DNA of 64,000 nucleotides. Source: Ginglymostoma cirratum (taxonomy: Eukaryota). Positions 36,544 to 59,985 of this stretch are shown here, one piece after another. Position numbers and translations under genes: made by a program. Positions within the stretch are counted from its first letter, which is position 1. Every line of letters starts with the position of its first letter. The notes under the pieces were generated by a model. It was not told where the DNA came from. It searched no databases and saw nothing but the letters and a program-made list of their open reading frames with translations. The stretch lies in contig JAHRHZ010000266.1 in assembly GCA_024137785.1 (NCBI GenBank), forward strand, positions 124,001 through 188,000. Reading direction: 5' to 3'.

Positions 36544-36575
36544 CTATGTGTTCACAATGGCTGCATAGGTTACAT
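36544..36575 (-). CDS. Gene B terminal coding exon with ITIM, (N)VTYAAIVNT*
   Basis: Branch ctgac plus ttctgtctctttcaaacag acceptor; phase 1; V-x-Y-x-x-I motif then tandem TAG TAG stops. Confidence 0.85.
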
Positions 36576-37079
36576 CTGTTTGAAAGAGACAGAAGTCAGT
36601 GCTGATTATGGTTATAATTTCAGTTTGTGGGTAATTACGGAAAGTGGGGAACATTTACCCCAACATCAGCTCCTCAGTATCAAGGTAATTACTGGAAAGG
36701 GAAATATTTACTCCAACAGTTGTACATTTTGCCCCTCATTCTCTTTACGACCTTTACAAACACATGGGGGGAGACAAGCTTTTTGACCGACAATGAAATA
36801 TCATTCAATGGGATAGTGGAGAATTTGTTCACTTTCCAATTGGTGCAGAAAAGCTACACCCAAATGATGATGGACAGATCGACCAACAGCATTGTGGTGA
36901 GGGGATAGGGCTTGGAGGTCATGTGATCAAACTTCCATGACGCAGCCACCCAGAGTCAGGGACTCTAATAACAAGGTAATAGATCACCCAGCCCCAACTG
37001 ACACTGTCTCACACATGGGAGAATGGGCTTCAGAGGAAGGGGAAAGGATCAGGATTTTGAAAGGAAAAAACTGACTCAC

Positions 37080-37121
37080 TCTCTTCTGAATCAGCAACTG
37101 AGAGAGTCTTGCCATCTTGAA
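37080..37121 (-). CDS. Gene B cytoplasmic exon 6, (V)QDGKTLSVADSEE(N)
   Basis: Acceptor ttattctttttcag, donor A|gtgagt; 42 nt, phase 1-1; 88-bp intron from the previous exon. Confidence 0.8.
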
Positions 37122-37123
37122 CT

Positions 37124-40100
37124 GAAAAAGAATAATCTGTTAGTAAAGAGGATGTATTTTAAATGTTTAGAAACATCACTATGTAGAAAAAAAATTTGTA
37201 GATGGTTACCTTTTCTGTTACTGTCAAACACGATGTTGGCATAGGTACAGGAATCAGGCCGAGCTGTAATACAAACAGTATCCACTCTGAAACTGCCTTA
37301 CTTCATCAGCTTTCCTACTCTAGAATCAAAGAATCTTACAGTAAAACAGAATCCTGTGTTTACATCACAGCTTTACCATTGGAAAATGTTCTATGATCTC
37401 CATGTGAATCAGACATCAAACTGTATTTGGAATTATTTGGACAGGTGGTGCTCCATTAGGCATGTCTTAAGGAGCGACTTAGAAGGGGGAAAGAGAGTTG
37501 AAGAGTTTTATATGGGATTCTTAGAATCTTGGAGATTGAAAACATTGGCACCAGTGATTTTGTTATTACAGTCAATTTAAACCACCTACCAGTCCGCTCT
37601 CTCCAGTGAGAGATCAGCGTTATGCCCCCTGGGATTAAGGTAAGTTTATATTTACGGTAAGGCATATGGAGGAGCCAGAACTGGAGGCAGGAGGTAGTCT
37701 CAATGGATTGTAGGTGTATGAGTATATTACAGAGACAGACCCACTGCTGTGGAGAAATTTGAACCTGAGGACAATAATCTTTAATTTATGCTTTTTTCAA
37801 CTTGTGAGCAGTTCTGGGTACCACATCTTGGGAAGTATAGTTTGAGCTGAGAAAGAAAGTGGTGCGGAATAAAGATATCTGCTCTCACACAGTTCAATTA
37901 CAAGTAGTTCTGTCACAAATTAAGTTTGTATCTCTTTGGACTGGAAGGTTTGGGGGTGATTTGATTGAAGTTCTCAAGGTAAGGAGATCATAAATGATCT
38001 TTCGGCATTCACCAAAGTGGGATGACTCAGATGACACGGGGATTCCTGATTCGATGATTACCAATGCTTACACAGGGTTTCCAATTTTCTCATAGTCCCA
38101 TGGTTCAGGTCACAAACCCTGCTCCCAGCACTCCTGAGCCTGGCCACTCCATTGCAGAGGAAACCCATCCTGCTCATCCAAAATTTTCATCCAGTTGGTC
38201 CAGGATTTTAAAGAGTCATGGTTCACAGCATCTCAAAGATATTGGCCAGCCAGTGATACCCAGGGCTCATGAGTGAATAAAAAAAGTCCTGCCCCTTACC
38301 GTAAATCAATCCCCCCTGGCCATTTAGCATTCCATCTGAGGAAATGCTTTTCATGTCTCCCCTGTTTATTCCCTTCATAGTTTTATGCCTCTCAATTGTC
38401 CCCTCTCAATCTCCTCTGACCTAAAGAAAACAGTCTGTCCAATCTCTCTTCAGAACTGAAACTCTCCAGCCCAGGCAACATCCCGGTAAATCTCCTCTCC
38501 ACCCTCTTCAGTGCAATCACATCCCCTCTATTATGTGGGATTGATGTAATGATTAATGTAATGATTTCTGAAGAAGGGTCCAGACCAGAAATGTCAGCTT
38601 TCCTGGTCCTCTGACGCTGCTTGGCCTGCTGTGTTCATCCAGCTCCACACCTTGTTATCTCAGATTCTCCAGCACCTGCAGTTCCTACTATCTCCTTCTA
38701 TAATGTGGATTCCGGAACCGCATACAATACACTAGCTGTGGCCTGACCAAATTTTCATTGAGTTCCAGCATAATCTCCCTGCTCTTACCTAAACTCTCTG
38801 CCTCAACTAATAAAGGAAAGTATCCCATAAATCTTTTTAACCACTTCATCCACCTGTCCTGTTTTGCTGGTCCCACTCTTTTTCTTTACTGGCACTGTAC
38901 TATCCCTGTTTCCTTCTTGAATGCATCTCAGTACATACCTTGTCTGGCCTGCCTGTGACTCCAGTCCCACAAAAGGACACTGGTTTAAGGTGCACTAAGT
39001 GTTAAAAAATGAGAGGGGTTGTCAGCGAGCGGATTTATACAGGGCTGCAAGGTGTCACATGCTCAAAGAGGAAGCCAATGTCATCAGTAAGTGATGGAAA
39101 GCAACAGCCAGCCTCAAAGATTACACTGCTGGAAGTCTGCATTCAGAAACATTTTACAGGATGATTTAATTTTATTTTCTTAAATGGAGAATACAGAAAC
39201 AGATTTTTTTAATATAAAGAAGCAAAGATTTGTCTCCCCTCCATCCTGGAAGTGAGTGAGGAAGTTGGTAGAGGCCTTGTGCAGAATCTTTGTATTCTAT
39301 TTAGTTATGGTACAGGTCCCAGAACACTGGAGAATAGCCAAAATTGTTCCTTTGTTTAACAGCAGCAGAGGTATTCTGAGAAATTATAGGCCAATGATGT
39401 GTCAGTGGTAGGGAAATTACTGGAGAAGATTCTTAGGGACAGAATTTTCTCATATTTGAAAAAATATGGATTTCTTAACAATAGGCAATATGGCTTTGAC
39501 CAGTGAAGATCGTGTCTTACAAACTCGATTCAGCTTTTTGAGGAAGTTTGATGGCTGATGAGGACAGGGGAGTAAGTGTTGTCAACATTGACTTTCATAA
39601 GGCCTTTGACAAGGTTCCATTATGGCAGGCTGATGCAGAAGTTGAAGTCACGCAGATCTGCGGAGGGATGGTAAGGTGGATACAGACTTGGCTTAGTCAT
39701 AGAAGACAGAGAGTAGTAGTGGAAGGGTGCTTTTCTGACTGGATATCTGTGAGCAGTGGTGTTCAGCAGGGATCAGTGCTGGGACCCTGTTATTTATTAT
39801 ATATGTAAATATTTTGAAGGATATTGTATATGTTCTGATTAATAAGTTTGCAGATGACACAAACATTGGGGAACTGTTGATGGTAAGAAGGATTACCAAA
39901 GGATACAGCAGAATATAGATTGGCTGGAGACTTGAGCTGAGAAGTGGCAGATGGAATTTAATCCGAACAAATGTGAGATGATGAATTTTGGAAGGTCTAA
40001 TGCAGGAGTAAAGTATGCAGTAAATGACAGAACCCTTAGAAGAGATAACATGCAGAGGGATCTGGTTGTGCAGGTCCACTGTTCCCTGAAAGTGGCAATG

Positions 40101-43100
40101 CAAGTGGATAAGGTGGTCAAGAAGGCATTTGGCTTGCTTGCCTTTGGGACTTAGAGGTTCAAAACTGGCAAATCATGTTGCAGCTGTATCGAAAGTTAGT
40201 TTGGCCACATTTGGAATATTGCGGGCAGTTCTGGTTGCCACACTAACAGAAGGATATGAAGGCTTTGGAGAGGAGATAAAAAAGATTTAGCAGGTTTTTG
40301 CCTGGTTTGGAGGATATTTGCTATGAGAAAAGACTAGACACATTTGGTTTGTTTTCACTTGAATGTCGGAGGCTGAGGGGTGACCTGGTAGAAGTTTACA
40401 AAATTATGAGATGCATGGATAGAATGAATATTTGGAGTCTTTTTCCCAGGGTAGAAGAGCCAATTACTTGAGGACATACATTTAAGATAAGAAGGAGGAA
40501 GTTTAAAAGAAATGCAAGAGGATTTTTATTTAACAGAGGGTGGTAAGTGCTTGGAATGTGGTGGTGGTAGAGGCAGGTTCAATCGCAACATTTACGAGGC
40601 ATCTTGACAGATACATGAAGAGGCAGGGAATAGAGAATTGGACAGCAGGGGGGCGAAAGGTTGTTCGTTTAGAAAGGTGTCAGTATCAGCACAGGTTTGA
40701 TGGGCCAAAAGGCCTTTTCCTGTGCTCTACTTTCTTTGTTCCTGGTGCAGACTTCCCTCATACCTGATGTAAACTCACCTCACTCCTGGTGCAGACATCC
40801 CTCCCCTCATTCCTGATATCAGCCTCCCCTCACTCCAGGTTCAGGCCTTCCTTCATTCTTGGTGTAGCCTTCCCCTAATTCCTGATGTCTTTCTGCAATT
40901 ATATAGAGCCTTGGAGAGAACGCACCTGGAATGTGGTGAGCAGATCCGATTTCCACATCTGTGACAATATCTACTTGTTCCAGAGGGAGTGTAACAAAGA
41001 TTCACCAAACTAGTTTCTGGGATGGTATGATAGTCTATTTATTCCCTCATCAAAGGACAGAGACTTTATTCTCTGGAAATCAGAAGAACGAGTGGTGATC
41101 TCATTCAAACAAACCATATTCTTACAGAGATTGACAGTGTTGATATGCTGTCTTGAACCAGGGAACACATCCTCAATGAGGAATAGGCCCTTATGGACAG
41201 AGATGAAAGGAAATTTATCTCAAAGGAGGTGAATTTTGGAAATTCTCTACCCCAGAGAGCAGTGGAACCTTAATATTGAGTATGTTCACAATTGAGATCG
41301 ATAGATTTCTAGACATTAAAAACTTTGAGGGGTATGGGGATCGTGCAGGAAATTGGTGTTGAAATACAAAATCAAACATGATCCTATTGATTGGTGGAGC
41401 ATCTTGTTCCTAGGGGGGAAAGAACTGATACACATTCTCCTGACTCTCCTACTTACTGTGGCTGTGGAAATCTTCCCAAAGACACACTGTAGCTTTAAAC
41501 CTTCCGGTGGAACCTTTGACATGCCTTTGTTGTCAGAAAAATCCAAGTAAAATGTCAAGCACAACACCAGAAACTCTGTATTACATTTCTCAACCTGACC
41601 AAAGCAGATAACTCGGTAAAGAAACTCAGTCCAAGAAACTTCTTCCAAATCCAGCAAATCTGACCTTCTGGAACAGATGTCTTCAAGGATCAGGACCAGA
41701 GTGACATCCCCTGTGTGATAGTTCCATATGATCTTTAACCTACCAAACAGTGGCTGTGCCCTCTGATTTCGGGATTAAATACTGCATGGATAGAAAACTC
41801 TTTAACCTCAGTCTCATCCGTGCCAAAATAACATGACCACAACAAACAGACATGAGATACAGTATGCACTGAGAACTTCACTGTTGGTTTTGCATTCTGC
41901 ACCAGAATAGCAAACCACCCTTGACCTCTTCAAACTTGCAAAAAGAGACTTGGCCACTGCTTGAGTGTTGCCAAAACAAAACTCAAATCACCCATCAGTT
42001 AAATATTCTACCTTACATATATATTAAGACTCCAGTATATATTTAGCAGTCACGATAGTTGGGAGGCACCTCCCTCAAAAAGGTGCCCAGGGGTGAGATC
42101 ACCGGGTCTGCCCATCACTGCAAGTCTGAGTCTAGCCCATAGGTGACTGAGACAGCACTCTGTTTCTCAATGTCCACTCCAGAAGTGATCCAACACTGGA
42201 TCAGCTGAGACAGCTCACCTTTTTAGAAACAATGGCTATGATTGTATGACAACATAGGCTCTCCACAAGTCAGCAAAAAGTTCTTTTTTTCATCACCAGA
42301 CCATGTAAATGTTGGTAGACCCACAATGCCATATGGGATGGAATTGCAGGATTGTGACCCAGAGACAGTGAAGGAACAATGATATATTTCCAAGTCAGGA
42401 TGGTGCATGACTTGGAGGGGAAATTGTAGGCGGTGGTGATCCCATGTATCTGTAGTAGTAAACAGGAATGCAGTTGACTTCATTGTCATGGTTAGGACAC
42501 TAAACAACATTTAGACACTTTCCCTGTTCCTCCAAAAAGACAAACTTCAGAAGCTTTTATTTCTTTATTTTTGAAACATTTCATTGCTTCTGTGTGTTTG
42601 GGACTTCTTCAACTCAAAAGCCACATGTCACAGCTTGTGAATCTTTGGTCATCTGCAGGGTGCTTTATAATGTTTAAATTTGCAATCACCTTGTTAAATA
42701 TAAATCATTTGAGGCTCAGAGCTTATCAATAAGCTGTTCCAGTCACTGACAGGTACAGGTCACAGTTAATTGTCTTGTATCACACATGCCTCTTGTGGAA
42801 TGTCACTCCCATGTGGCAGCAAATTAGGTAATATCTGCTTCCTGTTTGGTCGTATCATGCATGATAAGAGGCGGTCACTTAGCCCACTGTGCCTGTGTCA
42901 CCCATTGAAACAGCAAATGAAATTAGTCACACTCCCCGTGTTCTTTCCTGATTCTGTGCACTGACTCTGTCATGTGACCTCCGGTTCGTCTGACCTGAAG
43001 CCAATCACTTTTATCTGTGTACATTTACTAACTGACTGTCCTGCCACTGGAAACAGTTTCTCATGACTTACTTTATAAAGATTCTTCTTGATAAGGCACA

Positions 43101-43193
43101 GCTCAATCAAATCTCACCTTCATCTTCTCTAGTCTAAAAACACCATTTCCCCTGAAGATCTGATGTCTTTCTTTTCTGGAACCATTCAAGTTA
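37124..43193. repeat. Segmental duplication, copy B
   Basis: Same orientation as 1-8554, offset ~35-37 kb; differs by copy-specific insertions and deletions. Confidence 0.95.
37210..37263 (-). CDS. Gene B cytoplasmic exon 5 with tyrosine motif CTYANI, (P)RPDSCTYANIVFDSNRK(V)
   Basis: Acceptor gtttgtattacag, donor AAG|gtaacc; 54 nt, phase 1-1; splice sites conserved in the paralogous copy at 87-139. Confidence 0.85.
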
Positions 43194-44049
43194 ATCTTTT
43201 TTTTCACAGAAGTGTCCTCCCTAAAGTGTAGTGCACAGAATTGGTCATGTTTCTCCAGCTGAGCTCAAACTAATGTTTTAGACATGTTCAGCCTTGCTTT
43301 TCTACTCTATGCCCTAATCAATAAAAACAAACATTCCTTTTGCTTTTTTTAATGCATTTCAACTAAACATCCAAGCTTCAAACACTTGTCAATATGCATT
43401 CCCACCACCTTGCTGTACCTGTAACCATGATAAGATCGTACCATTTATCACCCCTCTCTTCATTCTTCCCACCATTATATATCCCTTCACTTTTCCCAGT
43501 ATTAATTTTCATTTGTCTGGCTATTTCACCAGCCTATAAGCTCCAGAGACTGGTGGAACCGTCAGTACATTTTGACATTTGTGTCATCTGCACATATTGA
43601 AATTATGTCCTGTATCCCTGAGTGTAACTCATTCACATAGATGAAGAAGAGAATTATATCAACAGCACTGCATACTTCCTTCCAGTCTGAAATACAACCG
43701 CATGCCACAGCTGTCTTCTTTCTGACCTAAAGCCAACATCAAAACCCAACAATCACTATCTTTGAAACTCATTAGGTTCAATTTAAAGAAGATACATACA
43801 GATTACTTAGCAGCAGGAGCAAGTCACACACCCATCACAGTTTTATTGACAATTCATTAAGATCATGACTGATCTGGTTTTGGCTCAGTTCCACTCCCCT
43901 TGCTTTTCCCCACAGCCTTCAATAATGGCAAATGTTGGTGGTCAGACTGTATGTATTGGCACAGAGGCTGCAGAATTGATAGGTATTGGTGGGAGGAGAA
44001 TAGGGTCATTAGTTCACACAAGCAGCTGCAAGCATTTCATCCTTTGTGT

Positions 44050-46250
44050 TTTGAATCCACCCAGGATCACAGGTCTCTCCGTGATGTACTATACCCCTCA
44101 GACAGCTGTTATCGCCACATCCTGAGATCCACACTCAGTGCCATGTGCAGTCATATGCACACCTGTGACATCTCTCCCCATCAGCACTGCCTCACACTGA
44201 TTCAGAGCTGTCCTAACCCAACCCCAATTCCACTTCAACATTCTAAAAGGGAACATTTTCTCTTTCTTACAGGCATGAAGCAACACAAGCTGTAACAACT
44301 CAGAGGTACACACCTCTCTGGAACCTTCCCTCCCTTTCCTTCCCACTTGTCTCCACCCATTCTCCTATCTCCACTTCTTGTCGGGCGTTCACTGACTTTC
44401 CACTCTCAGATACTGAACATTCTGTACTCAGCAAAAGTCTTAGTTTTAAACACTCTGCAACCCTATCTATGTTCTGTCTACAAGAAATTACGCCAAGCAT
44501 CCTGTTGCCTGCCACTTTAACATACCACACTGTTCCCTGGCCAATATTTCTATCTCCGGCTTGCTGCAGCACTCCAGTGAGGCTCAGCACAAGCTGGAAG
44601 AACAGCATCTCATTTTCCACTCAGGGACCCTACAGCTTTCAGGCCTCAACATTGAGTTCTGAATAATTTTAGAGCCTGAACACCTCATTCCATGTCCTTT
44701 ATCCATTACCACACCCCAGACCCTGTCATGACATGAGATAGTAGGAACTGCAGATGTTGGAGAATCTGAGATACCAAGGTGTAGAGCTGGATGAACGCAG
44801 CAGGCCAAGCAGCATCAGAGGAGCACGAAGGCTGATGTTTCTGGCCTCGACCCTTCTTCAGAAATGGGGGAGGGGAAGGGACTTCTGAAATAAATAGGGA
44901 GAGAGGGGGAGGCGGATAGAAGATGGATAGAGGAGAAGACAGGTGGAGAGGAATCAGACATGTCAAAGAGGCAGGGATGGAGCCAGCAAAGGTGAGTGTA
45001 GGTGGGGAGTTAGGGAGGAGATAGGTCAGTCCAGGGAGGAAGGACAGGTCAAGGGGGCGGGATGAGGTTAGTAGGTAGGAGATGGCGGTGGGGCTTGAGG
45101 TGGGAGGAGGGGATAGGTGGGAGGAAGGACAGGTTAGGTGGGAGGAGGGGACAAGCTGGGCTGGTTTTGGGATATGGTAGGGGGAGGGGAGATTTTGAAG
45201 CTTGTGAAATCCACATTGATACCATTGGGCTGCAGGGTTCCCAAGCGGAATATGAGGTGCTGTTCCTGCAACCTCCGGGTAGCATCGTTGTGGAACTGCA
45301 GGGGGCCCAGGGTGGACATGTCGTCTGAGGAATGGGAGGGGGAGTTGAAATGGTTTGCGACTAGGAGGTGCAGTTGTTTAGTGCGGACCGAGCGTAGGTG
45401 TTCTGCAAAGCGGTCCCGAAGCCTCCGCTTGGTTTCCCAGATGTAGAGGAGGCCCCAACGGGAACAACGGATACAGTATACCCCTTTACCAGATGTGCAG
45501 GTGAACATCTGCTTGATGTGGAAAGTCTTCTTGGGGCCTGGGATGGGGGTGAGGGGGGACGTGTAGGGGCAGGTGTAGCACTTCCTGCGGTTGCAGGGAA
45601 AAGTGCTGGATGTGGTGGGGCTGGAGGGGAGTGTGGAGCGGACAAGGGAGTCCCAGACAGAGTGGTCCCTCTGGAAAGCAGATAAGGGTGGGGAGGGAAA
45701 AATGTCTTCCTCCCTGGACTGACCTATCTCCTCCCTACCTCCCCACCTACACTCACCTTTACTGGCTCCATCTCCGCCTCTTTGACCTGTCTCCTCTCTA
45801 CCTATCTTCTCCTCTATCCATCTTCTATCCGCCTCCCGCTCTCTCCCTATTTATTTCAGAACGCCCTTCCCCTCCCCCATTTCTGAAGAAGGGTCTAGGC
45901 CCGAAACGTCAGTCTTCCTGCTCCTCTGATGCTGCTTGGCCTGCTGTGTTCATCCAGCTGTACACCTTGGTATCCCTGTCATGACATGACCATTTTCACT
46001 GACTTATTGTCCTCATTATCAGTGTTTCTTTTTCCAATGGTATACTATTGTCCAGCTCTTTGACCACCTAATTTTCGTTCTCTGTCCCTGGGCTCTATCT
46101 CGTTTTTATTCCATCTATCAGCTCACTCCTCTTCCATCCCCCACCCATGTCTTCAGCATATATACCACCTTTCCCCACCTGCAAACAGTTCTGAAGAAGA
46201 GACTTTGGATTTGAAATGTTACCTCTGCTTTCTCTCCACAGATGCTGGGA
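44050..46250 (+). mobile_element. Old Penelope-like element 3' part, host to a younger PLE
   Basis: KLEEQHLIFHSGTLQLSGLNIEF at ~44590-44660; pLTR resumes at 45990 and ends in ctgaaga...gaaatgtt. Confidence 0.6.
44737..45973 (-). mobile_element. Truncated Penelope-like element (family 2), GIY-YIG part with inverted pLTR
   Basis: ORF 45134-45508 closely similar to the C-terminus of 26643-28046; TSD ccctgtcatgacatga (44721-44736, 45974-45989). Confidence 0.95.
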
Positions 46251-46699
46251 GACATAGAACGTAGAACATAGAACATAGAACAGTACATCACAGTACAGGC
46301 CCTTTGGCCCACGATGTTGTGCCAAACTTTTATCCTAAACCTAAGGTCTATCTAACCTCCACTGCTACCTTATACAATCATCAGACCTGCTGAGTTTCTC
46401 CAGCAATTTCTATTAATTTATTGAAAGGTTTCCAGAACAAGAGAAGGCTTTTCAGACCATTATGTATGTGCTGATTGATAAAGAGCTCTTCAGATCAACC
46501 CACCTTCCAGCTCCTGGCCCATATCCCTGAATGTTCTAGTTCTTCAAGTGCTTATCCAAGTGAGTTTTAAATGTGATGAAGGTTTCTGCCTCTAACACCC
46601 TTTCTGTGACTTCCACAAACCCAGAATTCTCTGAGAGATAGATTTACTCCTCAACTCCATTCCAGTCCTTCCACCAAATACTGCAAGCTCTTGCTGCCT

Positions 46700-47660: not shown

Positions 47661-47921
47661 TGGCACTGGTTGGGGCTCACATCATGTAGCAGCTCGTCAG
47701 GGGAGAATTTATGGTCTCTTAAAACTGAACTGGGAGTTCTTATTTGGGATGAATCCCTGACGGTGGGGGAAGCACACATCATTGAACAGTTTCCCAGTGC
47801 AGCAGTAAACACCCTACTCAGGAAACCAGGCCCACGATGAAATTAGCTCATAAAGATTTGGTGGAATGGGAGTGATCTCAAACTCTATATTTTCTCAATA
47901 CAAAAGCAAACGTCGACTCAC

Positions 47922-47957
47922 GGTCTTCTGAAGCACTGATTGTGAATATCTTGTCAC
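47922..47957 (-). CDS. Gene B cytoplasmic exon 4, (G)DKIFTISASED(P)
   Basis: Acceptor tttgtctttgttaaag, donor C|gtgagt; 36 nt, phase 1-1; 93-bp intron from the previous exon; resembles exon 37080-37121. Confidence 0.75.
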
Positions 47958-48050: not shown

Positions 48051-48098
48051 CTGTTCTGTTGCTGTCAATCTCGGCATAGAAGCTGGAACCGTCCTGAT
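48051..48098 (-). CDS. Gene B cytoplasmic exon 3 with ITIM-like SFYAEI, (D)QDGSSFYAEIDSNRT(G)
   Basis: Acceptor tttctgttacag, donor CAG|gtaaat; 48 nt, phase 1-1; similar to exon 37210-37263 (Y-A-x-I ... DSNR). Confidence 0.85.
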
Positions 48099-51000
48099 CT
48101 GTAACAGAAACTGGAATGATAAGGGGACATTCATCAGCAGGTCTGTCCTTAGATATCAGCAATGGCTCAGTGGGCACCTCATACTACTCTGAGCTAGAAG
48201 GTTGTGGGTTCAAACTCCATTCCAAATGCTACAACATTAAATATAAGCTGAGACTTTGGAGCAGGTCCATTGGAGATGTTAAAGGTAAGTGTAGCCTGCC
48301 TTCTTAGGTAGATGTGAAAAATTCCACACGTATTACTTCAAAGGGGAATAGAGGAGTTCTCTATTGTATCCTTGTCACTCATCCCTCAACCCAGGTCATT
48401 GTGTCCTCACCAACACACATCCCTCAGTGTACATCACTAAAATACACATGTTAACTGAATGAATGCATTGCTGTTTGTGGGACCTTGTTGTGCACAAATT
48501 TGTTTTTGCATTTCTACCTCATAAGGAAGGAAAGAACTTGCATTTATATGGCATCTTTCATGACCTCATGACATCCAAAAGTTCCTAATGGTCACTGATT
48601 TCCTTTTATTTATTTGTAGTGACTGTTGGGAAATCCCCATTTTACAGGAACAGTATAAGATAGCACAGAGATGAGCTTTGTTTAACACTGCAGCCCCTCC
48701 CCATGCACTATCCGAACCAGCTACCGCCAGTAATTTGAGGTGGCTGACACTGAAATGGAGCCTCGTTCTGGATCCAAACTCAGCATGCAGATAGAACGTA
48801 AATCATAACAGAGACAGAAGACAGAATCCAAGCCAGTAATTTGGCATAGGGAGCCAGCCTCCATAGCAACATCAGATTCAGGAGTAGGATTAGGCCATTC
48901 AGTCCTTCATGCCTGCTACACCATTCAATTAGATCATGGCAATTCTAGTCTACCCCACAAGGGGAAACATCACCTCACCCTCTGTTTAATCAAGTACCCC
49001 CCAGGATCTTATGTGTTTCAAGAGAACGGTGTCAACTCAACCTTCCTGAGTCCCATAGCCATTGATTTTATTATCCATCAAAGATCTATCTGACTGTACC
49101 TTGGATGGATTCAATGACTCAGTCTCATTGATTTCTCGAAATCACAGACTTGTTACACTGCAGAAGGAAGCCATTTGATCCATCTTTTCTGAACCAGGTC
49201 TTCAAGTGAGTATCATTACTTAGGGCCAATCTCCTGCCTTTTCTCTGTATCCCCTTGCACACCATTTCCATCCAAAATAATCATCCAATGAGCCTCTTGA
49301 ATGCCTCAATTGACCCTGCCTGCACATTTACAGACATTAGCTATTCACTGGGTGAACAATCTATTCCCACATTGCCCTTTCTCCATTCGCACGCCACTTT
49401 AAACCTATGCCCTCTCATTCTTCTTCCTTTTTGAAGAGGCAGTAGATTCTCCCTATCTGTCTGTCTAGCCACTTACAATTTTGGACACCACTGTCTGACA
49501 AACAGAATTCCACAGATAAATGTCAAAAGTCAGGCAGAACATTTTTTTTCCAAGGCGAGATCTTATCCTGAAACTATTTTCCCTATTTCTAGGTCACAAG
49601 GGGAAACATTGCCTCACCCTCTGCTCAGTCAAGTACCCCCTGGGATCTTACATGTTTCAATAGAATTGTCTCTCATTCTTCAAACTTCCAGTTGGTACTG
49701 GCCCTGTCTGTCCAACCTTTCCTCATTTTTATGTTCATTTGTGTAATGTGGTGTCACTGACTAGCTAGCATTTATTGCCTGTCCCTAGTTGCCCTGAGAA
49801 GGTGATGGTGAGCCTCTTCTTGAACTGCTGCAGTCCACCTGCTGTGGGTTGACCCACAATGCCAATGCTAGTGCCAGTCAAGTGGGCTGCTTTGTCCTGG
49901 ATAGCGTCAAGCTTCGTGAATGTTGTTAGAGCTGCAAGCAGCCAGACAAGTGGGGAGTATTCCATCACACTACTGACTTGCGCCTTGTCGATGATGAACA
50001 GGTTTTGGGGAGTCAGGAGGTGAGTTAGTCGCCGCAATATTCCTAGCTTCTGACCTGCTCATGTAGCCACTGTGTTTATGTGGTGAGTCGAGTTGAGTTT
50101 CTGGTCAATGGTAACCCCACTGACACCAAGATGTTGAAAGCGGGTGCTTTAGTGATGGTATCACCATTGATTGTTAAGGAGCAGTGATAGCATTGGCTAA
50201 TGCCAAAGGGTATTACCCAATAGGGTAATGCCTATCCCAAATGAGCCCAGTCAACTTTTTTCTGAATGGCCTCTTTTGCGTTTATACTCTTTTTTCAAAG
50301 AAAGAGTGTGTAGTGTACACAGTACTGCAGCTGTGGTCTCACCAAGGCCCTGTACTGCTACAGTAAATCCTTCCTTCTTTTATATTCCATGGTCCTTGCA
50401 ATAAGCACTAACCTTGCGACTCATATACCTAGATTCCTCTGAACCTCCCATCTCTGCAATATTTCTCCATTTAAATAGGACACTGCTTTTTGATTCCTTC
50501 TGCCAAGGTGGACAACATCATATTTTCTCACATTGTACTAAATCCACCAAATTTTTACCCACTCACTTAAACTGCCAATATCATTCACGGACACACTAAC
50601 TACTCCCAACAACTTACGTTCCTGCATACGTTGGTGTCATTGTAAAAGTGTAGTGACCATTCCATTCATCTGGCCCATGAATTAATTGTCATTGATAAAG
50701 ATTGTAAAATGTTGAGGTCCAAGGGCTAATCTCTGTAGTAGTCCACTTGTGACAAATGTACATCCCATCTACTGGTTTCTCTTTATCCATTTTGATTATT
50801 ACTTCCTCAAAAACACTCATAAATTAGTTAAACACTATTACTGTTGATCCGATGTTGAGATATCCTACTATCACACAGGTGCAGCATCACAGATTTGTTA
50901 TGCAGCAGAAGAAAGCCATTCGACCTGCCTTGTCAAATGTCTCTTTGAATATGTTGACTAGTGCTAACTCCCTTTTCCTAATAATCCTAGATATTGTTTC

Positions 51001-51657
51001 CACTTTGTCATCCAATGCCCTCTTGAATGCTTCAATTGAACCTGCTTCCACCACACTCCCAGGCAATGTGTTCCACAAACAAATTACGTGTTGAGTGAAA
51101 ATGTTTTTCTCTCACCTCGCATTGGCTTCTTTTGCAAAGCACTTTAAAATGGTGCCTTTTTTTCCTCAAATTTATAGGTCAATTAATCTGTGTCTTTGGC
51201 TTCCCATCATTCTTTAAGAAATGTTTTACGTTTGCTATTTCCCAATCTGTTGGACTCTTTCAGAAGAAATGCTGGGAGATCCCATTCAATGCATCTACGC
51301 TCTCAGCAACCACTTCTTTTAATGCCCAGGTTTCAGGTGATCTGGACTTGTCCGTCTTAAGGTCTCATACTTTACCTAGTTTTTTCTCCACTGATGGTGA
51401 TTCTTTGTTTTAGTTCTTTCCTCTTTTGTATTCCGAACTATTTGTCAGGCCAGCTACTCTCTATGGAAGCCCACTGCTTTTCATTCTGATACTTTCAATG
51501 ATTTGAAACTGTGCAATCACTTCATCACTTGGGCAGTGAAAGTGAAACTCTGCCTCTGAATATCTGTCCAGGATTCCCACTGTGTTGATGCTTCACACTC
51601 TCTCTGTTACAGTGTCCGAAACGAACATTGATTGGTCAGTTAGAGTACAGTCAGTAC

Positions 51658-51719
51658 CTGGAGCAGATGGCTGTTGGGCCTGATCAGTCCTGGGAATGCT
51701 GGACAAATCTGGGTCATTC
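51658..51719 (-). CDS. Gene B cytoplasmic exon 2, (R)NDPDLSSIPRTDQAQQPSAP(D)
   Basis: Acceptor gtgtgtttttcag, donor CAG|gtactg; 62 nt, phase 2-1, exactly restoring the frame after the 40-nt exon. Confidence 0.75.
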
Positions 51720-52399
51720 CTGAAAAACACACAAGGAACATTAATGTTTTGAGGAAATTAATTGCATTCTCCCAGGTCATAGTAAGGAGCATTCTGTCTG
51801 CACATCGATCTCTTGGTCTGGTTACACAGAGGCCAGATTCCAAAAGGTGATATACACAGTTAATCCATTGAACCTTGTTAGAAATCACAGATGTTCGGAT
51901 TTAGACACAATCAGAAATGTTATCCTTGAATATGTCATCACGAGAAACAGTCTTCCCTTGGCACCAGAATGTGGCTGGCACCCATGGAATCCAAGGTGTA
52001 GTCAGCAGCCGTAACACAGGGAGCGCTGCAGAAACTGTCAGGAATCACAGTGACTGATGATTCCAGGAAGGTCTGGCTCAGCTTTAAGCAACTAGTTACA
52101 GCGCAAGGAGGGAGATGATTGGAGATGAGAGAAAAATCCCGGCAGGGGCTTCTCATCTGCTATAATTTTGGAAGAAGTTAGAGGGCTTGGAAATCTTGGA
52201 AGGTGGAGCAGTCAACACTCACTGCAAGTGGTAAAATGTTGATCTTTCTCTCCATAAAGCATTTATTGCAAATCGAAGGTTTAAAAATGTGCAACAATTT
52301 CTGTTTTACCTGAGGGTGATTTCCAGGTTAATTTGGAGATAGGAGATCTCAAATGAATCTGAAGCTCGAAATTTACAAGCAGATGGCATTTGGCAAACA

Positions 52400-53490
52400 G
52401 TTATAGAAACAGAGAAGCTAGGAACAGGTGTAGGTCATTCGGCCCTTTGAGACTGCTACACAATCCAATATGATCATGGCTGATCATCTATAACAATGCC
52501 AAATTCCCTCTTTCTTTTTTCCCAATACCCCTAGATGCCTTTTAAACCTAAAAAGGTATCTATCTTGTTCTTGAATATATTAGTGACTTGGCCTCCACAG
52601 CCTTCTGTAGTACAGAATTCCACACATTCACTGCAGTTCGAATGATGAAATTTGTCTTCATCTCAGTCCTAAAAGGTCTACCCCATATTGCGAAACTGTG
52701 TCCCCAGTCTAGATTCTGCAGCCTGGGGAAGCATTGTCTCTGCATCTAGTCTGTGCAGGCCTGGTCAAATTTTATATGTTTCAATCAGATCCCCTCTCAT
52801 CCTACTAAACCATCGAGAAAACAGGCCCAGTTGAACCAATCTCTCCACATAAAACAGTCCTGCCATCCCCTGTATCAGTCCAGAACTCTGCATTTCTTCT
52901 GTGGCAATCACATCCATTTTTAGGGAGAGAGGCCAAAACTGCACATAATACTCCATGATGGCTCAGCAGTTAGCACTGCTGCCTCACAACACCAGGGACC
53001 TGCATTCAATTCCAGCCATGGGTAACTGTCTTTTGTGGAGTTTGCACACTTTTCCTGTGTCAGCGTGGGTTTCTTCCCACAGTCCAAAGATGTTCAGGTG
53101 AGGTAGATTGGCTATGTTAAATTGCCCATAGTGCTTAGGATGGGAAATGCAGGGATATGGTAGGGGGTAGGGATACTGTTTGGAGGGACAGTGTGGACTC
53201 GATGGGCTGAATGACCTGCTTCCACACTGTAGGGAATCTATGAACCTATTCAGTTGCAGTCTCACTAAGGCCCTATATAACTGCAGTAAGACATCCCTAC
53301 TTCTGAACTCAAATCATCTTGCAATGATATCATTCGCCATCCTAATTGTTTCATCTGCCTGTCTACTTTCGTTGACTGGTGTACAAGGACAACCAGATCC
53401 ATTTGTACATTAACACTTCCCAATATATCACCATTTAAATTATACCCTGCCTTTCTGTTTTTCACAAAGTGTATAACTGCATGTGTAGCC
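52400..53490 (-). mobile_element. CR1 3' fragment interrupted by a V-SINE
   Basis: EYYVQFWP, MRGDLIETYKI, PFRTEMKTNF. Confidence 0.8.
52957..53245 (+). mobile_element. tRNA-derived V-SINE (HE1-like)
   Basis: ggctcagcagttagcactgctgcctcac head; V-domain gtggagtttgcac...gcgtgggtttc...cccacagtccaaagatg; CR1-like tail. Confidence 0.75.
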
Positions 53491-53613
53491 ATCAACCACT
53501 CGAATGTCAACCTGTCATTTCCCTCTTCATCTGTCCAGATCACTTTCCCACACTGAGTGTTCAAGCAGCTTCTTAAAAGGACAAACCACATTAAGCAGCT
53601 CATCACCAGGGGG

Positions 53614-53807
53614 AGAGAGACAATAGGTACTGCAGATGCTGGAGAATCCGAGATAACAAGGTGTGGACCTGGATGAACACAGCAGGCCAAGCAGCATCAC
53701 AGGAGCAGGAAAGCTTGACGTTTCAGTCTAGGCCCGAAATGTCAAGCTTTCCTGCTCCTATGATGCTGCTTGGCCTGCTGTGATCATCCAGCTCCACACC
53801 TTGTTAT
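53614..53807. mobile_element. Fold-back Penelope family 2 pLTR derivative
   Basis: Near-perfect inverted arms; TSD ctcatcaccaggggg (53599-53613, 53808-53822). Confidence 0.85.
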
Positions 53808-53914
53808 CTCATCACCAGGGGGCGTCATTCTGTCTGTGAGCAAGAGATGTTCAATTCAACTCTGAACCAAAGCATTTCTACACCCGCATTTATTTCAACT
53901 ACCGATTACTCTAC

Positions 53915-53954
53915 CTTTTCAAAGATGTAGTCTGCTCTATTTTCTGTGAATACC
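53915..53954 (-). CDS. Gene B cytoplasmic exon 1, (G)YSQKIEQTTSLK(R)
   Basis: Branch-like tactaat plus ttttattcctttag acceptor; donor AAG|gtagag; 40 nt, phase 1-2; open and phase-compatible with both neighbours. Confidence 0.75.
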
Positions 53955-54099
53955 CTAAAGGAATAAAAATGATTAGTAAATATTTAGTTAAGCCATGAAC
54001 AAATGCACTACGCAGCCTTCACTAGTGGAAGGGTATTAGACAGAACTGTCCCTTTTCAACAATACTATACGATTAAGGGATGAATATGCCTAGAATCTA

Positions 54100-54455
54100 G
54101 GCAATGGCCTAGTGGCATTATTGCTGGACTGTTAATCCAGAGACCCAGATAATGTTCTGGGGACCTGGGTTTGAATACAGCCACAGCAGATGGTAGAATT
54201 TGCGTTCAATAAATATCTGGAGTTAAGACTCTAACGATGACTGTGAATCTATTGATAATTTTTGGGGAAAATCCCAACTGGTTCACTAATGTCTTTTAAG
54301 GAAGGAAACTGCCATCCTTACCTGGTCTGACCTACACATGACTCCAGACCTGCAGCAATGCAGTTGACTCTTAATGGCCCTCTGAGCAATTAGGAATGGG
54401 CAATAAATGCTGCCTTGCCAGAGACGCCCTCATCCCGTGAATGAGTAAAAAGAAA
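54100..54455 (+). mobile_element. tRNA-derived SINE, near full length (relatives at ~11190, ~13933, ~55400)
   Basis: tggcctagtgg A box, gggtttgaat B box; 3' tail shared with the LINE end at ~840-930. Confidence 0.7.
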
Positions 54456-57400
54456 CAATTTTATGACAGTTAGTTTCTCTTCGTCAAGGGTGGCCTATAT
54501 AGCTCAATCTGATATCAATTATTGGACAAGCCAGATTCCCAATAGCAGGAAACTGATCCAAAACACCGACTGCCAGACTGGTTGGTCTATTGTCAGTTCA
54601 GTCCAAAATTATTCTTCTTTCCTTAGACACTCCTGTAACTCTAATTTAATAAAATGGCTTGTTAATTTCTAAAGAATCCTATAGCACAGTGTCAGCTCAT
54701 TGAAAGATCTAGCCAATTAGTTCTATTCCCATGACCATTCTCCATGATCCTCTAATAATGTATGCGTCCAGTTCTTTTTTGAATCAACAACCCTTTCAGG
54801 CAGTGCATACTAGATCACTGCTTATAGAAACCTATTTCTCATTCATGGGTGTCAGCTGGGCCAACGTTTGTTATGCAGTTCCAAATGTCCTTTAACTGAG
54901 TGGTTTTCCAGGCCATTTGAGAGGGCAATCAAGAATCAACCACATTGCATCTGAACTGACATGTAACCTAGACTGGGTAAGGATGGTAAGTTTCCTTCCC
55001 TAAAGGACGTTAGTGAGCCGTGTTGGTATTAATGACAATTCTCATATAGTCAACATTAGACCTATTTTCAATTCAGTACTTTTCTCATCAGATTCAAATT
55101 TGACCATCAGCCATGGTGAGATTCAAACCCATGTCTTCATAACATTTATCAAGGTCGATTATTAATTCAGTGCCCGTACCAGTACACCACCGTGTCCTCA
55201 AGAGGCTGTAAAGAAAAGGGTACATCAAATACATCTGTGTAATAGAGATAGTAAGTCAACAAACTAGAACCAGAGAAAGCACAGATATTTCTCAGATGGT
55301 TTCAAACCTGATTTCTGCAGTGTGAAATTTTAAGAACTTTAAAAGTACAGGAATCAAGAAAAGCAGAAGGATGCAAAGGAATCCCTGCAGAAGTGGTAAA
55401 TAGTGGTGTAAAGAAAATGTCACTGCACTAGCAATTCAGAACCTATTTCAGGAGACATGGTTTTGTATCCTATCATGGCAGATGGTGAAACTTTAATTCA
55501 ATAAAATCTGGAATTAAAAGCTAGTCTAATGGTGACCATGTAAGCACCGCTGGTTTTCATAAAAATGTATCTGGTTCATTGATGTCCTTTAGGGAATGAA
55601 ATCTGCTGACTTTACCTGGTTAGGCCGACAAGTACCACCCATCACCCAGCTCCCCCGCCCCCCCCCCCCCACCCCCCTTAGCTGCAATCAAATGACCAAA
55701 TAAGGCAGGGTCACTGGACTTGAAACATCAATTCTGTTTTCTGTCCACAAATGCAGGCAAACCTGTTGGGTTTCACTAACACTTTCTGCTTTTTGTTTGA
55801 ACAAGCCACTCAGTTTGAGGGTAATTAGGGATTGGAAACAAATGTTGGTTCAGCCAGTGACACGCACATCTCATGTTGTGGGATAGACCAGACTATGTTT
55901 TGACTTGTTTTGAAATTTTTCAAACTGTGTTACATGTTGATAGCTAGTTTGGTTCATCTTAATTTCCTTTGTCTAATAAGTCAAATCTTGTGTGCTCAAG
56001 TTTCTCTGATAAACCGCCACATTAAATTTTAAAAAAGAACAAGTTAGAAGTTGTCAAGCCAGATATCATTCCGAGATCTGACTGGAGTAGTAGCCACAAA
56101 TACAGAGAATGTTGGAGGCACCCAGCAGGTCTGGCATCATCTACAGAGAGAAGAACTGTGTTAATGCTTCAAGTCTTGTTAGGTATAGGTTAGGGTAGGG
56201 TTGGGACTGTTTTCAGAACTCCAATTGGAAAACTCTCCACAGATGCTGCCAGACGTGAGTTCTTCTGGCACTCTCTGTATTTGTTTCTCCAGCATCTAAA
56301 GTGCTTTGCTTTTATTTGACCAGTAATAACATCAGCTGGGATCTGGTATGATGTAGTTGTGTAGAAGATTGGAGTGGGTTATTTGGCTATTTGGGGAGAA
56401 TACAAGAGCAACAAAGAATTTCTCAGGAGGGTGGAGGAGGAAAGATTATATTGAATTTTATGGTATGACCCTGATTTCCACTGGTGACAACTTGTGATAT
56501 CTGCCACCTGCATCAGATAGGGTTTGTTTGAGGTAGTTCACTGCCATCAATTCTTCTTTCGATATACTGTGTTCATGACCCACATAATGATTGCTGGTAC
56601 ACCACTGTAGAGTCTTTACAGAAGAGGCATCATTCTTAGTAAATAAGATTGTTCATTACATGATAGTAATAAATGCAATTACATTCTAAACAGACGTAAT
56701 TAATAGGACTTTAGGGACTGGTATAGAGACATCTGTTCCCTCTGAAAGCTCCACCCACCAATTGCACATGATGTTAGTAGAATGGGTGGAACCAAAGTAA
56801 CATGAACATTAACGCCTTTAGAATCTTATACACCAAATATTGCCAAGAAAAGCAATAAAGTTGGACTGGCCTTGTCCAAACGCATGGGGACTTGCTGAAG
56901 GAGGTGATTTAAGGAAGGTTAAAGCAATGTAGGCCAAGCAGGAGAAAAGGAAAGATGATATTAGACAATACGAAACTGGAAATAGAAGGCTCCTACAAAC
57001 AACTGAAGAGGAAAGTGCAAAACAGCACTTGTGAAGAAACTCTGTGTCCTCTGACTTCCCTTCCAGTGGCAACATCTTCTCCACATATATTTTATCAAAT
57101 GCCTTCATGATGAACAAATCTATTGAATGTTCCCATATTCTCTGCTCTTAAGGAGAACAATTCCAGCTTCTCCACTCTCTCCATGCAATTGAAGGTGATC
57201 AAATCTGGTACTATTCCAGTAAATCTCAGAAAAATCCAATTTATTTACAAATTTAAGATGTTCAAAACCATCTCTTAGAGCACTATAACCGTACCATATT
57301 GGTAACTGTTGCAAGGTAAATGCTACTGGAAGCACAAATAATAATTCATTGTGCAATACTCTCAGTCACTCGACTGTATGGTTAGTTGTTCTTCCCCAAG

Positions 57401-57749
57401 GCATCAAGATTCTGAAGCCTTTTCCTAGTTCATCAGCACAAACTGTTTCTATTCAGATGATGGGCAAGAACAACTTAGCATTACATGGCACTGTTAATGT
57501 GGAGCTCTTGTGGCACAGTGGTTGGGCCCAAAAGTCGAAGTACAAGTGTCAACTGTCCTGAAGATATGTCTAAACAGGTTAATTAAAAATAATTTCTACC
57601 ACCTTTAACATATGAGCATCTCACAGGAGTAGACTCAAAAAAAATGAGGCTAAGTAGAAAAAGAGATATTAAAAGAGAGAACCAAAAGTTTGTTCAAAGA
57701 GGTAGGTTTTAAGGACCATCTTAAAGAAAGATTGAAAGAGGCGGTGAGG

Positions 57750-58760
57750 TTTTATCAGGGACAAACTCGAAAGGGGGACCTGGGTGTACATGTGCATAAA
57801 CCACTAAAAGTGTCACTGAACGGTCACTGGACTTGAAACGTTAACTCTGTTTTCTCTTCACAGATGCTTTCAGACCTGTTGAGTTTCTATTTTTGTTTAT
57901 TTCAGGTCTTCAGCAACCACAGGTCTTTGTTTTATATTACTGAAGGTGTCAGGGCTAGTGAAGAAAGCAGTTTATAAAAGATGTTGTATCCCATGTGTTG
58001 TTAATAGGGTTATGGAGTACTAGAGTAAGAAGGTTGTGCTGAGATAGCAAGAACTGAAGATGCTGGAGTCAAAGATAACAAAATGTGGAGCTGGAGGAAC
58101 ATTGCAGGCCAGGCAGCATCAGCGGAACAGGAAAGCTGACGTTTTGGGTCAGGACCCTTCTTCAGAAATGATGCTGCCTGGTCTGCTGTGTTCCTCCAGC
58201 TCCACACTTTGTTAAAGTTGTGCTGAACTTGTTAAGACACTTGTTAGACCTCAGCTGGAGTATTGTGTACAGTTCAAGCCACTGCACCTTAGGAAAGATG
58301 TGAAGGATGGGAAAGAGGACAGAAATGATTCATAATGATGGTTCCAAAGATGAGGAACTTTGGTTGTGAATGTAGATTGGATAAATTGCGACTGCTTTCT
58401 TTATATTTTCCTTGTAGGAAATGAGAAGAAATTTTCGGTATTGAAAATCACAGCTAACAAGAAACTTTCCACTCATGAAAGGATTGAGAACAAGAGGAAA
58501 CATTTAAACGAGTTGATCAAAGAAGCACAAGAGACGTGAAAAAATTACTTTTAAACACACTGGACTGTGAGGCTTGAGATGTGGTGGAGGCAGGTTCAAT
58601 TGAAATATTCAACAGAGAAGCAGACTGTTATCTAAATTGAAAGAATTCAGAGTGTTACAGGGAAGAGGCAGGAGTATGACACTAAGTGAGTTGTGCATTT
58701 AGAGAACCAGAGTGGACACAATGAGCTGAATGGCCACTTGCTGTGCTCTAGGGATTCTGT
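57750..58760 (+). mobile_element. Degenerate CR1 3' part with nested pLTR derivatives (~57815-57940, 58043-58213)
   Basis: VRPQLEYCVQF remnant; TSD a(g/a)gttgtgctga around the hairpin. Confidence 0.7.
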
Positions 58761-58999
58761 GTTTCTTCACATTTTCACAATTTAGAGACTAGACAGCAGA
58801 AAGCACAGCCACCAATGATAGAGCAAAGAAAATTGATGTACAAGGGGCTCAAGTTGAACAAAGGCAGTTTTGGAGAATTCAAGGGCACCGACGTGTTACA
58901 GAGATAGGGATGGAGAGGCATGAAGATAAAACAAGCTCTTCGTCACTAACATAATAGAACTCAGGAGTCTGAGGCCTACAATATGCCTGAGACATCCTG

Positions 59000-59330
59000 T
59001 ATGTTCAGTCTAGGTGACTCTTCATTAGAGCTGAAGTGAAGTGTGGAGGGGGCAGCATTTATGTAATATTTGGGGAGCTGGGATTTGGAGTGCTGGAGGA
59101 GAAAGGATGTTGATAGTTCAGATTAAGTGATTGACATGTTAATCTGAACTGTGAACATCCTTTCTCTCCCAGCACTCCAAACCACTCCCCAACTATAGCA
59201 TAAATGCTGCTCCCTCCACTCTTCACTTCAGCTCTGATGATGAGTCATCTTGACTTAAAACATTAGCTTACCCTCTCTCCATGGAAACTGTCTGTGTCGC
59301 TGTGATCCCCAGCATTTCTTATTTTCAGTC
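59000..59330. mobile_element. Fold-back element of a further pLTR family with hammerhead remnant
   Basis: 59010-59130 is inverse to 59140-59255; gct-ctgatga-tgagtcatcttgactt-aaaacatt-agc. Confidence 0.6.
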
Positions 59331-59874
59331 CATATTGCCATTCCACCCCTAGATATTGCTTTGTTATTCAGACTATCTGAGCCACGATGTCCATGCCTTT
59401 ATGCAGCAAACTCTCTAAACCCAATTTAATAATAAAAACACACAAGAGAATCATGTTGAATTTTAGGTTCCTTTCTGTTCTATTGAGATTCCGTGCCAAG
59501 TGGGAATGAATGGAATAGGTGTGGTCTGTTGGGCTTCTGTCAAATGGAAGTGAATGAAAAGACATTTTGGTGCAATGAGATTTGACAGTAATGGGGAGTA
59601 GAATGGGGATTGGTCCATCGGAGTTCAATACAATGGTCTGAATGGCCTTGCTTGTGAAACAGCCACAATGTTAAATTACTAGTGGCCAATACTTATTGAA
59701 CAGGCCACTTTCACCCAACCTCCATCACCACCAAAGGCAAAGTCAGTGTCTTCAAAGAATGAGTGGAAGAGGAGAGAGTTTATGAGAGAAAATTAATTCA
59801 GGGTCATCGTTTGTTGCTGTTTCAACCAACACAACCATATTGTTCTATTAAACCTCACTCTCTACAGAACCTAC

Positions 59875-59985
59875 CTCCTTTCTTCCTGAAAATGATGAGG
59901 ACAATGATGAGGATGAAGAAGATGAGCAGGATGCTGAGCAGTGGGGTGACCAGCTGATATTTGATAGTGGACTCAGTCCTCTTCA
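59875..59985 (-). CDS. Gene B (ITIM-bearing Ig-superfamily receptor): transmembrane exon, (V)KRTESTIKYQLVTPLLSILLIFFILIIVLIIFRKKG
   Basis: Acceptor ttctttccattttgtag, donor GAG|gtaggt; 111 nt, phase 1-1; ~22-residue hydrophobic stretch with no charged residue, then RKK stop-transfer. Confidence 0.9.

What the first reader, a model, noticed from the sequence alone, without database searches (positions are those of the whole stretch)
36544..59985. Hidden eight-exon TM + triple-tyrosine tail spread over 23 kb
Exons of 111, 40, 62, 48, 36, 54, 42 and 32 nt all have canonical ag/gt sites and compatible phases (including a 1-2 / 2-1 pair). They join into one open frame: TM-RKKGGYSQKIEQTTSLKRNDPDLSSIPRTDQAQQPSAPDQDGSSFYAEIDSNRTGDKIFTISASEDPRPDSCTYANIVFDSNRKVQDGKTLSVADSEENVTYAAIVNT*. 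VTYAAI and SFYAEI fit the ITIM consensus; CTYANI is atypical at Y-2. Four symmetric phase-1 exons could be skipped in frame, changing the motif number.
Basis: partly seen in the sequence, partly recalled or inferred. Interest (0 to 1): 0.75.

Follow-up and report, generated by a model that had tools for sequence, protein, structure and literature searches.

The report
Shark Siglec-15-like paired brake receptor
The eight scattered exons are real and form the membrane anchor and signalling tail of an intact shark immune receptor that likely acts as a brake, one of a shark-and-ray family of Siglec-15-like proteins that comes in matched, predicted 'off' and 'on' versions.

Summary
Confirmed. All eight minus-strand exons have AG/GT ends and join in one open frame. 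Spliced contigs from two studies show 4 of the 7 junctions. Both V domains match Siglec-15 best. Domain 1 keeps Siglec-15's four cysteines and its sialic-acid arginine; domain 2 has Gln there; there is no C2 domain. The gene sits in a tandem cluster with broken and four-domain paralogs. Relatives in sharks and rays come either with tyrosine tails or with a membrane lysine and a short tail, and their outer domains group by lineage rather than by signalling type (12 of 13): a paired-receptor family. The tail grew by duplication of a two-exon cassette, and annotated isoforms of relatives skip these exons. Only the last motif is a conserved ITIM. Phosphatase recruitment and sugar binding are untested. 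A new variant of a known kind; moderate interest.

The parts
59875..59985 (-). TM exon (111 nt, phase 1-1): short stalk, uncharged transmembrane helix, RKK stop-transfer. Preceded outside the window by leader (G000:C266:222797-222740), V domain D1 (205591-205208) and V domain D2 (190172-189822); window = C266:124001-188000
   Evidence: helix 273-299 in the model of the Stegostoma relative
53915..53954 (-). tail exon e2 (40 nt, phase 1-2)
   Evidence: e2-e3 joint in contigs of X8 and X1
51658..51719 (-). tail exon e3 (62 nt, phase 2-1)
48051..48098 (-). tail exon e4 (48 nt, phase 1-1), Tyr343 in SFYAEI; first half of duplicated cassette 1
   Evidence: no read joint seen for this exon in the rows shown
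47922..47957 (-). tail exon e5 (36 nt, phase 1-1), spacer; 93-nt intron before it
   Evidence: e5-e6 joint across the 10,658-nt intron
37210..37263 (-). tail exon e6 (54 nt, phase 1-1), Tyr371 in CTYANI; first half of cassette 2
37080..37121 (-). tail exon e7 (42 nt, phase 1-1), spacer; 88-nt intron before it
36544..36575 (-). last coding exon e8, Tyr399 in VTYAAI, stop TAG
35900..36543 (-). 3' UTR (at least this far; AATAAA near 35990; contigs run past 35900)
   Evidence: contigs of X1 and X8 cover 35900-36575 with 0 differences; signal search

Best explanation
The exons encode the membrane helix and cytoplasmic tail of an intact, spliced shark receptor with two Siglec-15-like V domains, which likely damps immune-cell activation by recruiting SHP-type phosphatases to its phosphorylated tail and possibly senses sialylated sugars with its first domain. 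Shown: exon structure, open 405-aa frame, four spliced junctions, Siglec-15-type cysteines and arginine in D1, uncharged TM, three YxxI motifs each 28 residues apart (Tyr343, 371, 399), cassette duplication, tandem paralogs, and lysine-TM relatives with matching outer domains. Inferred from other paired receptors: D1 binds a sialylated ligand through Arg128; D2 (Gln at that place) serves as the stalk in place of a C2 domain; Src-family kinases phosphorylate the tail; the terminal ITIM with one upstream motif engages the tandem SH2 domains of SHP-1/2; skipping e4 or e6 changes motif number, skipping e5 or e7 changes spacing, skipping the TM exon gives a soluble form; lysine-TM partners signal through DAP12/DAP10 and answer pathogens that exploit the inhibitory member.
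For: Siglec-15 (7zoz) is the top PDB hit by sequence for D1 (E 3.6e-12) and D2 (E 1.3e-10), by family profile (E 3.6e-25, next 1.5e-15) and by fold of the D1 model (Z 17.3, rmsd 1.9, 118 aligned; next sialoadhesin 15.7, PILRA 14.9). The alignment puts C46/C127, C74/C87 and R128 on Siglec-15 C64/C142, C95/C104 and R143 (numbering from PMC10264397 passages). Arg follows the F-strand Cys in 71 of 84 D1-type domains matched. Of 86 homologs, 45 have an uncharged TM, 14 a TM lysine, 27 no TM; 28 of the 45 end in V/I-x-Y-x-x-V/I/L and 29 of 45 hold CTY[AS]x[ILV]. In 12 of 13 lysine-TM proteins the outer part is closer to an uncharged-TM member of the same order (75-94%) than to a lysine-TM member of another order (61-75%), while 13 of 13 TM segments score higher with lysine TMs of other orders. 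The tree joins activating and inhibitory members as sisters in four lineages for both domains (support 99/95 to 100/99) and in a fifth for D1 only. e4-intron-e5 aligns with e6-intron-e7 at score 161 against 59 +/- 10, maximum 100, in 1000 shuffles.
Against: No binding or signalling data exist here. There is no C2-set domain, which Siglecs have by definition (PMC13324755 passage). D1 is only about a third identical to Siglec-15, and fold Z-scores of unrelated V domains reach 13-15. The arginine is replaced in 13 of 84 D1-type domains, including several lysine-TM members. PMC7226832 reports that zebrafish Siglec-15 did not bind tested glycans strongly. The middle motif has Cys at Y-2, outside the ITIM consensus, and the other two end in Ile. 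Narcine P0074 breaks the pairing pattern (50% vs 53%). The homolog sets include isoforms and close paralogs, so counts are not independent. In this genome no complete lysine-TM partner was read: one has a stop in D1, and for the other D1 was not found in the readable sequence. Three junctions lack read support.
Confidence: 0.7

Rival explanations
1. An inhibitory paired receptor whose ligand is a protein or a glycopeptide (PILR-like), with the arginine inherited but sialic acid not the main determinant.
For: PILRA and PILR are ranks 4 and 7 for the D1 fold (Z 14.9, 14.7). The arginine is lost in 13 of 84 D1-type domains and the C-C' loop and G strand vary strongly between paralogs. D2 has no arginine.
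Against: Siglec-15 scores clearly higher by sequence and fold; Arg is nearly invariant (90% or more) in alignment A2, which suggests selection.
Confidence: 0.2
2. The tail is a docking or trafficking tail rather than a brake: the YxxI motifs bind the AP-2 adaptor for endocytosis, or other SH2 proteins (Csk, SHIP, Src kinases), and CTYAxI is its main motif.
For: All three motifs fit YxxPhi; the most conserved internal motif is outside the ITIM consensus.
Against: The terminal V-x-Y-x-x-V/I is kept from sharks and rays to a salamander relative, and the existence of lysine-TM partners is the usual mark of inhibitory/activating pairs.
Confidence: 0.07
3. The gene belongs to an already described cartilaginous-fish Ig family such as the skate MDIR (CD300/TREM/pIgR-related; recalled, not read) or to NITR/DICP-like receptors, and the Siglec-15 likeness is convergent.
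For: pIgR is the second hit for D2 and for the family profile; NCBI names some members 'polymeric immunoglobulin receptor-like'.
Against: No CD300 or TREM chain appears in the rows shown for the PDB sequence searches or in the 50 fold rows; the cysteine pattern and CRVE motif follow Siglec-15. No MDIR, NITR or DICP sequence was compared directly.
Confidence: 0.03

Closest known systems
Siglec-15 (human, PDB 7zoz; PMC10264397, PMC7226832 passages read)
   Same: V-set fold, B-F disulfide directly before the essential Arg, second cysteine pair in the C'-C'' region; lysine TM in the activating relatives.
   Different: Siglec-15 is V-C2 with a TM lysine; this gene is V-V, has an uncharged TM and a three-tyrosine tail, and is one of a tandem multigene cluster.
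Paired Siglecs 5/14 and 11/16 (named as paired receptors in PMC13324755 passages; gene conversion of 11/16 seen only as a cited title there)
   Same: Inhibitory and activating twins with homogenised outer domains.
   Different: Those are CD33-related, with C2 domains; this family is Siglec-15-type, V-V or V-V-V-V, and the pairing spans sharks and rays.
PILR alpha/beta (PDB 9pd2, 4nfc; pairing and biology recalled)
   Same: Siglec-like V domain without C2, inhibitory member plus lysine-TM activating member.
   Different: PILR has one V domain; D1 is 24% identical to it against 33% to Siglec-15 in the fold alignment.
Unnamed RefSeq models in elasmobranchs, e.g. Stegostoma LOC125449501 (XP_048381282.1), Rhincodon LOC109912568, Hemiscyllium LOC132826572
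   Same: Same exon plan and motifs; nearest relatives of this gene.
   Different: They carry automatic names (uncharacterized, Siglec-10/12/15, pIgR-like, JAML-like, A33-like); no paper describing them was found in my nine searches.

Membership tests
Siglec | N-terminal V-set domain with the essential F-strand arginine | tested here: met
   R128 aligns with Siglec-15 R143; D1 fold top hit Siglec-15
Siglec | One or more C2-set domains after the V domain | tested here: not met
   Second domain is V-set; tblastn with a C2-bearing relative found nothing at 30 bits or more between D2 and TM; the nearest annotated ortholog has the same length less e5
Siglec | Type I single-pass membrane protein | tested here: met
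   leader, TM exon, tail
Siglec | Arg-dependent sialic acid binding | not testable with these tools
   needs a glycan-binding assay
Siglec-15 ortholog | C64-C142 and C95-C104 cysteine pairs | tested here: met
   all four cysteines align in D1; bonds themselves not measured
Siglec-15 ortholog | TM lysine for DAP10/DAP12 | tested here: not met
   uncharged TM in this gene; met in 14 of 86 relatives
Siglec-15 ortholog | Conserved gene neighbourhood (urea transporter, EPG5, ATP5F1A; order recalled) | tested here: inconclusive
   UT is on C249 and the ATP synthase alpha match on C248, not on C266 or C12; the DNA fetched to look for a Siglec-15 there was mostly unreadable
ITIM-bearing inhibitory receptor | S/I/V/L-x-Y-x-x-I/L/V motif in the tail, conserved | tested here: met
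   VTYAAI and SFYAEI fit the broad form; terminal motif in 28 of 45 uncharged-TM homologs. The narrow L/V form of PMC7226832 is not met by this gene
ITIM-bearing inhibitory receptor | Phospho-dependent SHP-1/SHP-2/SHIP recruitment and inhibition | not testable with these tools
   bench assay needed
Paired receptor family | Similar ectodomains with opposite TM/tail types, concerted evolution | tested here: met
Paired receptor family | Intact activating partner in this genome | tested here: inconclusive
   two lysine-TM exons on C12 (2.81 and 2.88 Mb); one D1 has a stop, the other D1 not found in readable DNA
MDIR / NITR / DICP / CD300 | Domain similarity and tree placement with those families | not tested
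   no reference sequences were available from the calls; families recalled

The most novel reading that the evidence does not exclude
Siglec-15 is the surviving activating member of an ancient jawed-vertebrate family of paired sialic-acid receptors. Sharks and rays kept and expanded the inhibitory arm as V-V receptors, which fill the role of CD33-related Siglecs, tune their brake by splicing tyrosine exons in and out, and use a conserved non-canonical CTYAxI motif that is shared with a salamander receptor.
Probability: 0.3. Interest if true: 0.65.

Novelty: new variant of a known kind. Interest (0 to 1): 0.42.

Why it matters
Human Siglec-15 is an immunotherapy target with a lysine TM. An old, expanded family of Siglec-15-type receptors with inhibitory tails and lysine-TM twins would show where it came from and that paired, concertedly evolving receptors of this type predate the shark-ray split. 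PMC7226832 states that fish genomes lack the CD33-related inhibitory Siglecs and asks what replaces them; this family is a testable candidate for cartilaginous fish. The many small tail exons are ordinary for immune receptors, so the exon layout alone is not surprising.

Tried and rejected
Chance chain of exons: rejected. Processed-pseudogene origin of the spliced contigs: unlikely, since the UTR contigs match this locus with 0 differences and the TM exon DNA has only 4 matches in the genome, three in this cluster. The V exons inside the window (19.7-23.9 kb) as this tail's ectodomain: rejected, they lie downstream and belong to the next, broken paralog. e8 as a third copy of the cassette: not supported (scores 21.5 and 26 against shuffled means 17.7 and 19.0). 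Synteny with the mammalian SIGLEC15 locus: inconclusive. The tree holds no mammalian Siglec-15, has open deep forks and one mis-cut duplicate row (P0053_2), so it does not place the family against SIGLEC15. Foldseek with the two-domain model returned generic V-V proteins (JAML, pIgR, scFv) and was not informative. ESM Atlas gave mixed V-set clusters (Nectin-2, CD22-like, CD33-like). The look-up of sequencing runs listed no holder on record as RNA; raw-read run X13 did not cover the exons, which says nothing on expression elsewhere. No search of the 1.84-billion-protein library was obtained, so the range in bony fish and tetrapods is open. Literature: nine searches (Siglec-15 or siglec with cartilaginous fish, shark, chondrichthy, elasmobranch, Callorhinchus; synteny/paired receptor; immune-type receptor with skate; gene conversion; siglec15l) found no paper on this family. 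The library lacks most subscription journals; Angata 2007 on Siglec-15, the 2018 review of Siglec evolution and the skate MDIR paper were not read, and no supplements were opened, so prior description cannot be excluded. No complex prediction was run.
Full report
Observation. The eight exons lie on the minus strand exactly at the lengths given; every acceptor is AG, every donor GT, and the joined frame is open to a TAG at 36544. Introns are 5920, 2195, 3559, 93, 10658, 88 and 504 nt. Contigs of two public runs from different studies skip four introns at these boundaries (e8-e7, e7-e6, e6-e5, e3-e2). In X8 the spliced contigs have depth 386-484 against 17-32 for the long intronic contigs listed. 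The e3-e4 and e4-e5 joints were not in the rows shown (122 hidden) and TM-e2 was outside the stretch, so three junctions rest on homology alone. The contigs crossing e6-e5 reach only 26-30 nt into e5, as expected if alternative forms branch there (inference).

The whole gene. The window is G000:C266:124001-188000. Upstream lie a V exon D2 (190172-189822), a V exon D1 (205591-205208) and a leader (222797-222740). Joined by coordinates they give 405 aa with no internal stop and five N-glycosylation sequons outside the cell. The gene spans about 63 kb. Its closest relatives are carpet-shark proteins (D1 79-85% identical), so the genome is very likely a carpet shark's.

What the outer part is. Siglec-15 is the best PDB match for D1 and D2 by sequence, for the family profile, and for the predicted folds (Z 16.7 for the Stegostoma relative; Z 17.3, rmsd 1.9, 118 aligned for this D1, pLDDT 85). 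PMC10264397 (passages) gives Siglec-15 the bonds C64-C142 and C95-C104 and the essential R143. In the alignment D1 has all four cysteines and the arginine; a tyrosine also falls on Y87, but beside a gap, and it is not kept in paralogs. D2 has two cysteines and Gln at the arginine place. No C2 domain was found, so the protein works like a Siglec at most; it fails one defining feature (PMC13324755 passage).

The tail. Tyr343 (SFYAEI), Tyr371 (CTYANI) and Tyr399 (VTYAAI) are 28 residues apart (from the exon ranges). e4-intron-e5 and e6-intron-e7 are an old duplication (151 of 261 columns identical; score 161 against 59 +/- 10 in 1000 shuffles). Among 45 uncharged-TM homologs, 28 end in V/I-x-Y-x-x-V/I/L; in these the penultimate motif has Cys at Y-2 in 25 of 28, and the one before varies. 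So the last motif is the conserved ITIM, CTYAxI is a conserved non-canonical motif, and SFYAEI is a local variant of it. Annotated isoforms of one Heterodontus gene carry four, three or two motifs, and Mustelus and Rhincodon isoforms lack e4. Others lack the TM exon (P0007, P0023, P0025, P0065), lack TM and e2 with a frame shift (P0010, P0016), or read into the intron after e4 (P0024). The same events are possible here by frame but were not seen in reads.

The cluster. On C266, 0-272 kb, all on the minus strand: a paralog with a stop in D2 and a decayed e6; this gene; a broken paralog mostly inside the window; a D1-D2-D1-D2 gene with TM, e2, e3, e6-e8 whose leader was not found; a broken copy with two damaged D1 exons; and a lone leader at the contig end. 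On C12 at 2.81-2.88 Mb are two lysine-TM exons with D1/D2 pieces, and at 3.02-3.06 Mb a V-V-C2 gene with a TM lysine and a V-C2 gene without. In six of the other shark species listed, the V-C2 gene and this family lie on contigs of the same length, so C12 and C266 are probably parts of one chromosome (inference).

Paired family. Of 86 homologs, 14 have a TM lysine, most with short tails. Their outer domains are closer to inhibitory-type members of the same order than to lysine-TM members of other orders in 12 of 13 tested (P0040 and proteins without species labels in my table were left out), while their TM segments are closer to each other across orders in 13 of 13. The tree shows sister pairs of opposite type in horn shark, stingrays, skates and catsharks for both domains. 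The lysine TM is therefore older than the shark-ray split, while ectodomains have been homogenised or re-shuffled within lineages. Gene conversion and exon shuffling were not told apart. A salamander protein (P0059) has V-V-C2 and a tail with EYANI, CTYADI and VTYAVV (29% identity over the V domains; tail match E 3e-4); its place in the tree is unresolved.

Verdict. The layout of small phase-1 tail exons is ordinary, and relatives are already in RefSeq under automatic names. What is less ordinary is the family: Siglec-15-type V-V receptors with inhibitory tails and lysine-TM twins across sharks and rays, for which nine literature searches found no description (key papers in subscription journals were not readable). 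Gene model about 0.95, inhibitory function about 0.75, sialic-acid binding about 0.5. Papers seen as passages only: PMC10264397, PMC7226832, PMC8455134, PMC6795676, PMC13324755, bioRxiv 10.64898/2026.08.25.746757; all others as search listings. SHP mechanism, PILR pairing, MDIR/NITR/DICP and the human gene order near SIGLEC15 are recalled.

Noticed in passing
window 30494-30437, 23902-~23535, 20053-19706, 139-86 (all minus): Next paralog downstream: leader, D1 with frameshifts and stops, intact D2, no TM-e5 found, e6 with a stop at the tyrosine; e7 and e8 lie just outside the window. Looks like a pseudogene.
   Followed up: partly
window 26643-28046 (+) and 45134-45850 (-): 467-aa open frame and a shorter copy that look like the RT/GIY-YIG end of a Penelope-type element (recalled; no Pfam hit). 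The second lies in the 10.7-kb intron.
   Followed up: no
window 2494-3144 (-) and many other places: LINE reverse-transcriptase fragments (RVT_1, E 6e-10).
   Followed up: no
G000:C12:3015993-3021171 (+), L049-L050: Siglec-15-related V-V-C2 gene with C2 and TM in one frame and a TM lysine; neither V has the essential arginine.
   Followed up: partly
G000:C12:3047626-3055600 (+), L052-L053: V-C2-TM gene, 64-95% identical across 8 shark proteins and named Siglec-15 by NCBI; has the arginine and scores higher against 7zoz than D1 (E 5.6e-16) but lacks the second cysteine pair and the TM lysine.
   Followed up: partly
G000:C266:110382-69694 (-), L031-L036: Four-domain paralog (D1-D2-D1-D2-TM-tail) without e4/e5; four-domain forms are also annotated in Chiloscyllium and Hemiscyllium, and a D1-D2-D2-D2 form in Heptranchias.
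   Followed up: partly
P0046-P0049, P0053 in alignment A1: Skate and ray D2 domains carry a long, variable insertion between the F and G strands that sharks lack.
   Followed up: no
P0012, P0027; P0095 vs P0013; P0097: Annotated isoforms use an acceptor inside D2 (dropping its first half), a second acceptor 3 nt upstream of e8, or skip D1 altogether.
   Followed up: no
G000:C155:691.0 kb (+) and 1049.1 kb (-), L056, L057: Other Siglec-like V exons with the arginine, of a CD22/CD33-like look, far from this family in the tree.
   Followed up: no
window 63100-64000: Low-complexity purine-rich (minus strand) tandem repeat in the D2-TM intron.
   Followed up: no
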